From the NCBI RefSeq assembly GCF_009914755.1, contig NC_060933.1: 64,000 nt of DNA, one strand, 5' to 3'. The stretch is from the human T2T-CHM13v2.0 reference genome, Homo sapiens. Shown here piece after piece: positions 24,901-27,900 of the stretch (position 1 is the stretch's first letter; each line of letters opens with the position of its first letter). The notes under the pieces are model-generated. The model had not been told where the DNA came from, did not search any database, and was given only the letters and a program-made list of their open reading frames with translations. The position numbers were made by a program, and so were the translations under genes.

Positions 24901-27900
24901 AGCTGGTAAGTGGCAGAGCCGGGATTGAAACCCATGCGGGCCTTATGTGCTAGAGGTGTCCAGTGAGCCTGGGCTGCAGTCCTTGCTGAGCCTGTCCCTT
25001 GGGGCTCTGGGTCTCTGCTTTGTCCACGCAGGTCTGATGGAGCTGCGTTTCCTGTGCATGGACTCTGCCCTCAGGGTGCCTGTCCAGGAAGAGCTGTGTG
25101 GCCTGGCAAGCAAGCCTGGGAGCCGGCGGGAGGTCTGCCAGGCTGTCCCGTGCCCTGCTCGGTGAGTGAGGGGAGCAAGACTGTGTGCTGGCCTTCTCCC
25201 TGTAAGTGGGAGACCCGAGCCTTGGCTCCATGCCCGGTGACCTGCGGAGGGGGGCAGGTGCTGCTGGCTGTGCACTGTGTGAGGCTGGACCATGGCCGCC
25301 CCATCCCCCTGCCTCACTCCAAGTGCAGGCCAGAGCCCCGGCCCAGCCCCTTTGAGGACTGCAACCCAGAGCCCTGCCCTGCCAGGTGGGCCCCTTCCCA
25401 AGGAGACAGGGGGTGCTAGGTCTGCATCCTGGCTCTTTCCTCACCTCCAAGCCAGACCTTTTGACCCTCAGTGTCCTCACCAGTGGGAGCAGGTCATTTT
25501 GTGCCCCCAGAAGACTGGGGGAGTTTAATGAAAGGATTAGATGCATGTAAAGTACATGCTAAATGCAATGAGTGTAAAATGCATGCTCGATGCAACGCGT
25601 GTAAAGTACATTGCACAGGATCTGGGATGCTGTGGGTGCACATGGTTGCTGGTGCGTTTCTTCATCGCCTGCTCTTTATGGAGCACCTAGGCCCCGGGGC
25701 CGTCCTGGAGCTAGGGGACACAGCAGAGAACAAGGCAGACAAATGTCCCTGACCTCCTGGAGCAAATGCAGGGGGAAAGGGGGACAGATAATAATAGGAC
25801 AGGCGGGGAATGCAGTTTGATGGATGGTGTTCAGTGCGATGCAGCCAAACACAGCGGGAGGGGAGGAGGGGAGGGCTGGCGGGGTGGGCTCCAGGGCGGT
25901 GGTGCTGGGATCACTGTTGAAGACAGACATGCAGGGCCCTTGGCTGCCCGGACCCCTGCCCCCACTGTCTCTGGGATACGACATCTGTCGTTTGCCCTCA
26001 CCTTTCTCTTCTGTAAAATGGGTTTGTCCAAATGTTCTGTCCACTCTGCCAAGCCTCTTGGTGAGGACACAAGGGGGCCTCCAGAAAGAGAACCTCTCCG
26101 GGCCCTTCCCAGCTTCCTGTCTCTTCCTAGTCTGGGGAAATGAAGGGGAGACCTGGCTCCCCTGGGTTCCCAGGCCCTGGGGCTGTTTGGGGTCCCTGAC
26201 TCCAGTTTGCTCCAGGTGGCAGTACAAGCTGGCGGCCTGCAGCGTGAGCTGTGGGAGAGGGGTCGTGCGGAGGATCCTGTATTGTGCCCGGGCCCATGGG
26301 GAGGACGATGGTGAGGAGATCCTGTTGGACACCCAGTGCCAGGGGCTGCCTCGCCCGGAACCCCAGGAGGCCTGCAGCCTGGAGCCCTGCCCACCTAGGT
26401 GAGTCAGCCGGTGATGGGAGGGGCAGCTCCTGGTGTGTGCAGATGCCAGGCCAGGCGCTGTGGTGTGTGCCTGTAATCGCAGCTACTTGGAAAGCTGAAT
26501 CAGGAGAACCACTTGAGTCCAGGAGTGCAAGTCCAACCTGGGCAACACAGTGAGACCTCATCTCTAAAAAAAAAACAAGACGGGGCCAGGTGTGGTGGCT
26601 CACGCCTGTAATCCCAGCGCTATGGAAGGCTGAAGCGGGTGGATTACCTGAGGTCAGGAGCTTGAGACCAGCCTGGCCAACATGGTGAAACCCCATCTTT
26701 ACTAAAAATACAACAATTAGGCTGGGCGCGGTGGCTCACTCCTGTAATCCCAGCACTTTGGGAGGCTGAGGCGGGCAGATCACCTGAGGTTGGGAGTTCG
26801 AGACCAGCCTGTCCAACATACAGAAACCCTGTCTCTACTAAAAATACAAAATTAGCCGGGTGTGGTGGTACATGCCTGTAATCCCAGTTACTTGGGAGGC
26901 TGAGGCAGAATCGCTTGAACCGGGGAGGCCAAGGTTGTGGTGAGCCAAGATTACGCCACTGGACTCCAGCCTGGCTAACAGCAGCAAAACTCCATCTCAA
27001 AAAAAAAAAAAAAAAAAGAAAACCCACAAAAATTAGCCTGGCGTGGTGGTGTGCACCTGTCATCCCAGCTACTTCAGAGGCGGAGGCAGGAGAATCGCTT
27101 GAACCCGGGAGGCGGAGGTTGCAGTGAGCCGAGATGGCGCCGCTGGCACTCCAGCCTGGGCTACAGAGCGAGACTCCGTCTCAAAAACAAAACAACAAAA
27201 CAAAACAAGACGGGGTGGGGGGCTCAGTGGCCCAAGAGCCAGTCTGTAAGGAATAGGGCTACCTGGCAGGCTGTGCTAGTTGTGGGAGGTGAAGTTTAAG
27301 CACCATGCAGGCAGGGTGCAGTGTGGGGAGGCCTGGGGGACAGAGGAGGCAGCATTTGAGCAGAACCTAAAGCTGTGAGCACCAGCATTCTGATGTGGAA
27401 GACGGGAGGGATGGAGGTCTCCACAGGGACACACACAGCCACACTAGGACACGGGACAGAATCATGTTCAAGTCCGTGGGGTCCGGAGCCCAGTGGTAAA
27501 GGGCGAACATTTGCCTACCTCATTTACAATTCTTTAATGGTTTCTTTTTGTAGGTTTGCATTTTTAGTAAAGAAATACTTTTCTATATCATACAGAAACG
27601 TCCAGAAAAGAATGTAACAGACATGTATGTTCCAGCACTCCAGTTTAATAGATAGCATCCTACTGCCATGTTTCCTTCCTGTCCACTTACTTTTATTTAT
27701 TTAATTTATTTATTTTGAGACGGAGTCTCGCTTTGTTGCCCAGGCAGTGATGCAATCTTGGCTCACTGCAACCTCCGCCTCCCGGGTTCAAGCCATTCTC
27801 CTGTCTCAGCCTCCCAAGTAGCTGGGAATACAGGCACCCACAACCACACCCAGCTAACTTTTGTATTTTTAGTAGAGACAGGGTTTCACCATATTGGTCA

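What the first reader, a model, noticed from the sequence alone, without database searches (positions are those of the whole stretch)
25206..25385. Fossil ninth TSP1-repeat exon in ADAMTS13 intron 22, reading frame intact
Seen: a 180-nt phase 2-2 segment encodes [16 protein letters not shown]...HCVRLDHG...[23 protein letters not shown]. It has all six Cys and the same W...CxxxCGxG...C...C...C.xEPCPxR layout and donor context as real exons 19 and 23, with no stops or frameshifts. The donor is intact. The acceptor is tgtAA|G where tgtAG|G is needed, and the upstream intron would be only 44 nt, below the usual human minimum. The new AAG one base downstream would give a 179-nt frameshifting exon. 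Inference: an ancestral ADAMTS13 had an extra TSP1 repeat between T5 and T6, silenced fairly recently by splice lesions. From memory, rodent Adamts13 has a very similar repeat at this position and comparative studies report variable TSP1 numbers, so the domain may already be known in other mammals; I cannot verify this here. Distal TSP1 repeats take part in ADAMTS13 autoinhibition, and deep-intronic variants here could create a poison exon relevant to congenital TTP.
Basis: partly seen in the sequence, partly recalled or inferred. Interest (0 to 1): 0.85.

Follow-up and report, generated by a model that had tools for sequence, protein, structure and literature searches.

The report
Dead ninth thrombospondin-repeat exon in ADAMTS13
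Intron 22 of the human clotting-control gene ADAMTS13 holds an intact but unspliceable leftover exon for an extra protein module, one that gene models of giant panda and a tamarin monkey still include.

Summary
Window 25206-25385 (+) is a stop-free 180-nt, phase 2-2 segment 44 nt after ADAMTS13 exon 22. It encodes a full-length TSP1_ADAMTS domain (PF19030, 44.3 bits against a cut-off of 23.8), scoring like live exons 23 and 19. The frame-keeping acceptor reads AA, not AG. The only nearby AG gives a 179-nt exon with a stop after 11 codons. All 11 RefSeq ADAMTS13 models skip the segment.

It is not a chance ORF or a recent duplicate. Its nearest human relative is T6 (exon 23), at only 47% identity.

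Two named predicted proteins carry its orthologue in frame. Giant panda has exon 22 joined to it (48/60 identical). Cotton-top tamarin has it joined to exon 23 (50/60 identical). Trp, six Cys and length are kept in all three species. Under assumed neutral rates, 12 human-panda differences is far too few.

So a T5-T6 intervening repeat was a selected coding exon in placental ancestors and is a relic in human. "Silenced recently", "intron shortened" and "rodents have it" are not shown. The key comparative paper (Muia 2019) could not be read, so prior description is possible.

The parts
25206..25385 (+). Relic (unitary pseudo-) exon encoding a complete TSP1_ADAMTS repeat. It would insert 60 residues between T5 (exon 22) and T6 (exon 23).
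   Evidence: Open frame and translation. PF19030 44.3 bits, full length. Orthologues in panda and tamarin predicted proteins. Not in any of the 11 RefSeq ADAMTS13 models. The only one of 17 chr9 PF19030 matches outside annotated coding sequence.
25162..25205 (+). 44-nt interval between the exon 22 donor and the relic exon. It looks like a tiny former intron: gtgagt donor, G-rich 5' half (16 G of 44, one GGGG run), ccttctccctgt pyrimidine tract.
   Evidence: Only 6 of 9189 distinct NM_ introns on chr9 are <=45 nt, and 3 of those are 1-nt annotation devices. Spliced human introns of 43 and 49 nt are documented (PMC4463651).
25204..25205 (+). Acceptor position of the relic exon. It reads AA where a frame-keeping 3' splice site needs AG.
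   Evidence: All 27 live ADAMTS13 acceptors in the window end in ag. The panda model joins exon 22 to the Trp codon in frame.
25205..25206 (+). Shifted AG one base downstream. Its use would give a 179-nt exon, a 45-nt intron and a stop after 11 codons.
25386..25393 (+). Intact GT donor of the relic exon (CAG|gtgggccc), similar to the live exon 12 donor AAG|gtggggcc.
   Evidence: The tamarin model splices the orthologous exon in frame to exon 23.
25032..25161 (+). Live exon 22 (C-terminal part of T5). Its donor is the upstream partner of the relic exon.
   Evidence: RefSeq annotation.. Panda P0002 residues 1-42 match it at 30/42.
26216..26398 (+). Live exon 23 (T6). It is the closest human paralogue of the relic exon and its downstream splice partner in the tamarin model.
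   Evidence: 27/58 identical. (tamarin T6 55/60 identical to human).

Best explanation
Window 25206-25385 is the relic of a once-constitutive ADAMTS13 exon. It encoded an additional thrombospondin type-1 repeat between today's T5 and T6.

The repeat is an old member of the distal T array, as diverged from the other repeats as they are from each other. It was kept under protein-coding selection along most of the path joining primates and carnivores.

In the human reference it can no longer enter the mRNA in frame. The acceptor dinucleotide is AA, and the only usable AG is one base off and shifts the frame into a stop. Any intron upstream would be just 44-45 nt.

The spliceosome therefore joins exon 22 directly to exon 23, and human ADAMTS13 has eight rather than nine TSP1 repeats. 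The segment itself now has no protein function.

Shown: the sequence anatomy, domain membership, absence from RefSeq models, and orthologous in-frame exons in two predicted proteins.

Inferred: that those exons are truly expressed, that selection acted on them, and that the AA acceptor (rather than something else) is what silenced the human copy.
For: 1. Full-length PF19030 match of 44.3 bits, against 43.2 for live exon 23 and 49.7 for live exon 19.
2. Trp, six Cys and the CxxTCGxG stretch align with live repeats.
3. Giant panda P0002 reads exon 22 (30/42 identical), then CPAW|WETRAL..., then the orthologous repeat (48/60). Tamarin P0001 reads the orthologous repeat (50/60), then T6 (55/60).
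4. Both proteins hit the relic exon and its live neighbour as their best human matches.
5. 44 of 60 columns are invariant in the three species, with no indel.
6. Under neutral drift at an assumed human-carnivore distance of 0.25-0.35 substitutions per site, 26-32 residue differences are expected. P(<=12) is at most 0.0007, and P(no stop, Trp and six Cys kept) is at most 0.005.
7. The closest human paralogue is only 47% identical (T6), so this is not a recent copy.
8. AA sits at the acceptor. None of the 12 AGs in 25162-25329 gives the whole domain in frame.
9. None of the 11 RefSeq models uses the segment.
Against: - The cross-species evidence is two computer-predicted protein fragments only. 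One lies on a 1670-nt contig and runs on into presumed intron. The other is 'partial' and starts exactly at this exon.
- There is no transcript evidence from any species.
- No DNA of another species could be examined, so acceptor state and intron length elsewhere are unknown.
- The tamarin model does not include the exon 22 junction, so the exon may already be unspliceable in New World monkeys.
- Human and tamarin have changed equally (4 and 4 derived residues) and about twice as fast as T6 (10 versus 5 differences in 60). That fits relaxed constraint in both lineages.
- Full-length ADAMTS13 proteins of other species were out of reach of the length-limited search. 13 and 485 unnamed candidates were left out by the tool.
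- Human RNA-seq was not available.
Confidence: 0.8

Rival explanations
1. Live but unannotated regulated 'poison' exon. The shifted AG (25205-25206) and the G-rich 45-nt intron are used at low level, or the exon 22 donor is skipped in favour of the 25385 donor. Either gives transcripts with an early stop that are removed by NMD and tune ADAMTS13 output.
For: The donor is intact and a pyrimidine tract is present. Both routes give an immediate or early stop. Human introns of 43 and 49 nt, mostly G-rich, are spliced (PMC4463651). The interval has 16 G of 44.
Against: None of the 11 RefSeq models, which include Gnomon models built on RNA evidence, shows such a junction. Only 6 of 9189 chr9 NM_ introns are <=45 nt. 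The conservation seen is of the protein sequence (Cys, Trp), not what a poison exon needs.
Confidence: 0.1
2. The repeat was never a constitutive part of ADAMTS13. It is an alternative or lineage-restricted exon, or even a gene-prediction artefact in panda and tamarin that merely stayed open by chance.
For: Only two predicted fragments carry it. None of the human RefSeq models does. No paper I could read mentions it (reviews).
Against: 80% identity without indels between human and panda, against 71% for live exon 22 over 42 residues, is incompatible with neutral drift. The domain scores as well as live repeats. An alternative exon would still be a coding exon, so the 'fossil exon' reading stands.
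Confidence: 0.07
3. Chance open frame in GC-rich intron that happens to resemble a TSP1 repeat.
For: The segment is 70% G+C, so 60 stop-free codons alone are not remarkable.
Against: PF19030 E 2.2e-11. Genome-wide six-frame E 2.1e-7. Collinear orthologues.
Confidence: 0.01

Closest known systems
ADAMTS13 TSP1 repeat 6 (exon 23) and repeat 3 (exon 19)
   Same: Single-exon, phase 2-2, about 60-residue TSP1_ADAMTS repeats with W...CxxxCGxG...C...C...C..PCPxR. T6 is the best human match (27/58 identical, score 120) and T3 the next (24/60, score 114).
   Different: Those exons have AG acceptors and introns of 632-4450 nt on either side, and they are in all full-length RefSeq mRNAs. The relic has AA at the acceptor, a 44-nt upstream interval and no transcript support.
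Lineage-specific loss of distal T domains in ADAMTS13 (for example pigeon ADAMTS13 lacking T3-T6; Muia et al., Blood 2019, known to me only through reviews)
   Same: It shows that the middle T repeats of ADAMTS13 are evolutionarily dispensable and have been lost in some lineages, while allosteric regulation is kept (passages in PMC8449270, bioRxiv 10.1101/2025.11.26.689657, PMC9826392).
   Different: Those reports, as cited, describe losses relative to the human eight-repeat layout. Here the human layout itself is the reduced one. I could not read the paper or its supplements, so whether it already names a T5/T6-intervening repeat is unknown.
Human ultra-short introns (ESRP2 43 nt, NDOR1 49 nt, HNRNPH1 56 nt; PMC4463651)
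   Same: The 44-nt interval is of that size, with G the commonest base and a G run.
   Different: Those introns are shown to be spliced. This one lacks an in-frame AG and has no transcript evidence.
Disease-associated pseudoexons and poison exons (for example SCN1A 20N; search listing only)
   Same: An intronic segment with a good donor and pyrimidine tract, whose inclusion would introduce a premature stop.
   Different: Typical pseudoexons are non-coding intron sequence. This one is a decayed genuine coding exon, and no activating variant is reported in what I searched (listings only).

Membership tests
TSP1_ADAMTS repeat (Pfam PF19030) | Profile score above the curated cut-off over the full profile | tested here: met
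   44.3 bits against a cut-off of 23.8, profile 1-55 of 55, E 2.2e-11. 42.8 bits in the genome scan.
TSP1_ADAMTS repeat (Pfam PF19030) | Six conserved Cys, N-terminal Trp, CxxxCGxG core | tested here: met
   W1, C9, C13, G14, G16, C24, C40, C52 and C57 are invariant against exons 19, 23, 24, P0001 and P0002.
TSP1_ADAMTS repeat (Pfam PF19030) | TSR fold (three strands, three disulfides) | not testable with these tools
TSP1_ADAMTS repeat (Pfam PF19030) | O-fucosylation site C-x-x-(S/T)-C-x-x-G (motif recalled, not from a call) | tested here: met
   CPVTCGGG at residues 9-16, identical in human, tamarin and panda. This is a sequence pattern only. ADAMTS13 TSRs are POFUT2/B3GLCT substrates according to passages of PMC5604996.
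Generic TSP_1 (Pfam PF00090) | Score above the curated cut-off | tested here: not met
   17.6 bits against a cut-off of 21.6. The live exons 23 (19.1) and 19 (20.2) also fall below it, so this does not tell the relic apart.
Live ADAMTS13 coding exon | AG acceptor that keeps the frame | tested here: not met
   AA at 25204-25205. Of the 12 AGs in 25162-25329, 4 are in frame. Two of these leave introns of 5 and 14 nt, and two cut the domain to 102 or 57 nt.
Live ADAMTS13 coding exon | GT donor | tested here: met
   CAG|gtgggc at 25385/25386.
Live ADAMTS13 coding exon | Present in annotated transcripts | tested here: not met
   0 of 11 RefSeq ADAMTS13 models. RNA-seq was not available.
Lost (unitary pseudo-) exon of a live gene | Orthologous segment is a coding exon in other species | tested here: met
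   It is in frame in 2 of 2 named proteins found: panda exon 22 joined to it, tamarin with it joined to exon 23. Reciprocal best hits. Both are predictions, not cDNAs.
Lost (unitary pseudo-) exon of a live gene | Past purifying selection on the protein | tested here: met
   12 of 60 human-panda differences against 26-32 expected neutrally at assumed distances. There is no indel. No codon-level test was possible without foreign DNA.
Lost (unitary pseudo-) exon of a live gene | Disabling lesion in the species that lost it | tested here: met
   No frame-keeping AG and a 44-nt upstream interval.
Poison (NMD) exon | Inclusion observed in transcripts | not testable with these tools
   No reads or junction data. 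0 of 11 RefSeq models.
Poison (NMD) exon | Inclusion introduces a premature stop | tested here: met
   The 179-nt version stops after 11 codons. Read-through from exon 22 stops at once.

The most novel reading that the evidence does not exclude
The relic is not fully inert in people. The G-rich 45-nt interval may be spliced like other human ultra-short introns, so the segment acts as a low-level poison exon that modulates ADAMTS13 output. Alternatively, rare human alleles at the acceptor may give a nine-repeat ADAMTS13 with altered distal-domain autoinhibition. Either would make intron 22 a place to look in genetically unsolved congenital TTP.
Probability: 0.07. Interest if true: 0.75.

Novelty: new member of a known kind. 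Interest (0 to 1): 0.45.

Why it matters
It indicates that the human eight-repeat ADAMTS13 is a reduced form of a nine-repeat placental ancestor. That adds to the evidence that the middle T repeats are dispensable spacers in the enzyme's autoinhibited fold.

It gives a concrete annotation for an unannotated, domain-encoding stretch of intron 22 that variant interpreters would otherwise treat as anonymous deep intron.

It also marks a site with an intact donor, a pyrimidine tract and a near-acceptor, where variants could plausibly create aberrant splicing. The practical weight is modest unless human inclusion is shown.

Tried and rejected
**Short-protein search.** The search with the 59-aa peptide alone came back blank, because only proteins of 33-103 aa were candidates.

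**Profile search.** The search with the three-species alignment A2 gave the same two proteins and nothing new. 24 candidates were scored and 485 unnamed ones were left out.

**Full-length orthologues.** ADAMTS13 proteins of about 1400 aa could not be reached. No stop-free reference longer than 150 aa contains the segment. I did not read through stops or type a spliced protein.

**Control genomes.** The 14 control genomes of the genome search hold no TSP1_ADAMTS match, so they gave no vertebrate comparison.

**Structure.** The PDB sequence search was blank.

**Literature.**
- Muia 2019 and Zhu 2019 (Blood), Zhou 2007 and Banno 2009 are not held. Their supplements, like all supplements, were closed or unseen and may bear directly on novelty.
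- No paper holds both ADAMTS13 and 'T6a'.
- Searches for extra, additional or nine TSP1 repeats, pseudoexon or cryptic exon, deep intronic (27 papers listed, none read) and zebrafish or orthologs gave nothing about this segment.
- One search was a badly chosen search and gave only irrelevant papers.
- The MSC splice-variant preprint concerns exon skipping, not this segment (abstract).

**Other fossil TSP1 exons in the window.** A scan found only the known repeats plus one 11-bit hit at +4108-4206, taken as chance. The model used there included the relic itself.

**Rejected readings.** A recent tandem duplicate is rejected because identity to T6 is only 47%. A chance ORF is rejected on the Pfam and genome-wide E-values.
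Full report
**1. What is in the sequence.**
Window 25206-25385 on the + strand lies in ADAMTS13 intron 22 and starts 44 nt after exon 22 ends at 25161. It reads g + 59 codons + ag. The peptide is [59 protein letters not shown](R), with no stop.

Exon 22 ends with two bases of an Arg codon and exon 23 starts with one base. A 180-nt insert would therefore keep the frame.

The donor is CAG|gtgggc. The two bases before the segment are AA, preceded by ccttctccctgt. All 27 live ADAMTS13 acceptors in the window end in AG.

**2. It is a real TSP1 repeat.**
- Pfam PF19030 (TSP1_ADAMTS) matches over the whole profile at 44.3 bits (cut-off 23.8, E 2.2e-11). Live exon 23 scores 43.2 and live exon 19 scores 49.7.
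- PF00090 is below its cut-off for the relic and for both live exons.
- In a six-frame scan of the whole human genome with PF19030, the segment ranks 49th of 103 matches.
- Of the 17 matches on chromosome 9, 16 lie in annotated coding parts of ADAMTSL1, ADAMTSL2 or ADAMTS13. This is the one that does not.
- Trp1, the six Cys, Gly14, Gly16 and the final Arg are invariant in an alignment with exons 19, 23 and 24 and the two orthologues.
- Residues 9-16 (CPVTCGGG) fit the O-fucosylation pattern of TSRs as I recall it. The motif comes from no call.

**3. It is old, not a recent copy.**
Its best human relatives are ADAMTS13 exon 23 (47%, E 1.1e-4), a chr5 repeat (40%), exon 19 (39%) and exon 24 (31%). 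In a matrix of all ADAMTS13 repeats, relic-T6 (27/58) and relic-T3 (24/60) sit within the range of the other pairs, for example T2-T6 at 28/55. The repeat is therefore a long-standing member of the array.

**4. It is not used in annotated human transcripts.**
All 11 RefSeq ADAMTS13 models join 25161 directly to 26216.

I listed the 12 AG dinucleotides from 25162 to 25329:
- None gives the whole domain in frame.
- The AG at 25205-25206 gives a 179-nt exon with a stop after 11 codons.
- Two in-frame AGs would leave introns of 5 and 14 nt.
- Two more would cut the domain to 102 or 57 nt.
- Read-through from exon 22 stops at once.

**5. The short interval.**
A 44-45-nt intron is very rare. Of 9189 distinct NM_ introns on chr9, 6 are <=45 nt (three are 1-nt annotation devices; the rest are 30, 35 and 44 nt) and 7 are <=65 nt. 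The smallest ADAMTS13 intron in the window is 79 nt.

It is not impossible, though. Human introns of 43, 49 and 56 nt are spliced, and most validated ultra-short introns are G-rich (PMC4463651, abstract and passages). The interval here has a gtgagt donor, 16 G of 44 with a GGGG run, and a pyrimidine tract.

**6. Cross-species evidence.**
The 59-aa query found nothing among proteins of 33-103 aa. I then used the 150-aa stop-free frame around the segment, scored on residues 81-140. This returned 2 named proteins of 2 scored, with 13 unnamed candidates left out.

- P0002 is giant panda 'ADAMTS13-like', 115 aa, on a 1670-nt contig. It reads exon 22, then CPAW|WETRAL..., then the orthologous repeat, then 13 further residues.
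- P0001 is cotton-top tamarin 'ADAMTS13, partial', 120 aa. It starts at the orthologous repeat and continues in frame into T6.

| Comparison | Identical residues |
|---|---|
| Relic, human vs tamarin | 50/60 |
| Relic, human vs panda | 48/60 |
| Relic, tamarin vs panda | 48/60 |
| T6, human vs tamarin | 55/60 |
| Exon 22, human vs panda | 30/42 |

Both proteins find the relic and its live neighbour as their best human matches, so the orthology is collinear. A profile search with the three sequences found nothing further.

**7. Selection and timing.**
44 of 60 columns are identical in the three species, without indels, and the first 16 residues are identical.

I ran a simple simulation on the human sequence. 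The rates are assumed, recalled and not measured: kappa 2, CpG transitions 10-fold. It gives 26-32 expected residue differences at a total neutral distance of 0.25-0.35. P(<=12) is at most 0.0007, and P(no stop, Trp and Cys kept) is at most 0.005. Even at a distance of 0.15, P(<=12) is 0.045. The repeat was therefore under protein-level constraint along most of the primate-carnivore path.

Within primates the picture differs:
- Human-derived changes number 4, tamarin-derived 4, panda or stem 6, and all-different 2.
- That is about twice the change seen in T6 over the same pair. The numbers are small.
- Under neutrality, about 5.3 residue changes are expected in about 43 My.
- The joint chance of keeping frame, Trp, Cys and no stop is about 0.13 at 43 My, 0.27 at 28 My and 0.50 at 15 My.

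Intactness therefore does not show a recent loss. The data allow silencing anywhere from near the anthropoid ancestor to much later. The tamarin model begins exactly at this exon, so the exon 22 junction may already be unusable there. That is a hint, not a result.

**8. Rodents.**
A review states that the mouse IAP insertion is in intron 23 and removes T7-CUB2 (PMC9826392, passage). That is the human numbering and argues against an extra exon before T6. A PLoS Genetics paper calls it intron 24 (PMC4383553, passages). From memory, mouse ADAMTS13 is one residue shorter than human, which leaves no room for a ninth repeat. This is recall only.

**9. What is known.**
Reviews report, citing Muia et al. 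2019, that pigeon ADAMTS13 lacks T3-T6 yet keeps allosteric regulation, and that T7, T8, the linker and the CUB domains matter. Reviews describe the human tail as T2-T8 plus two CUB domains. None of the passages I saw mentions a repeat between T5 and T6 or a relic in intron 22.

The primary paper and its supplements were not available. Prior description therefore cannot be excluded.

For some searches I saw the listings only.

**10. Verdict.**
The segment is a genuine fossil exon of a ninth TSP1 repeat. It is real and selected in the placental past, and dead in the human reference through loss of a frame-keeping acceptor next to a 44-nt interval. It is a new, well-preserved example of a known kind of event, exon loss in a modular gene.

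The domain itself already sits in public predicted proteins of other mammals. Interest is moderate. It would rise if human inclusion, a human acceptor polymorphism or a disease variant were shown.

Noticed in passing
window 25183-25206 (+), frame of the relic exon: Read in the relic's frame, the 44-nt interval gives ...VCWPSPCK just before WETRAL. This faintly echoes the C..PCP.R end of a TSP1 repeat, and the panda protein's alignment to human ran into it. It is probably a by-product of the pyrimidine tract.
   Followed up: no
window 4108-4206 (+), ADAMTS13 intron 6: A weak match (11.0 bits, E 0.04) to a home-made profile of ADAMTS13 T repeats, in an intron within the protease-domain part of the gene. 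I took it as chance.
   Followed up: no
window 24718-26444: Intron 22 (25162-26215) carries no masked repeat of 100 nt or more, while the neighbouring introns 21 and 23 hold several.
   Followed up: no
literature on mouse Adamts13: The strain-specific IAP insertion is placed in intron 23 by one source and in intron 24 by another. The exon numbering of the mouse gene differs between papers.
   Followed up: partly
chr9 annotation (outside the window): RefSeq NM_ models on chr9 include 1-nt 'introns' in CEL, TNC and TNFSF8, and very short introns in QSOX2 (30 nt), TTC39B (35 nt), KIAA1958 (44 nt) and NDOR1 (49 nt).
   Followed up: no
window 5060-6609: The merged exon row with three coding parts comes from one Gnomon model (XM_054361861) that starts in a long first exon spanning intron 7.
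   Followed up: no
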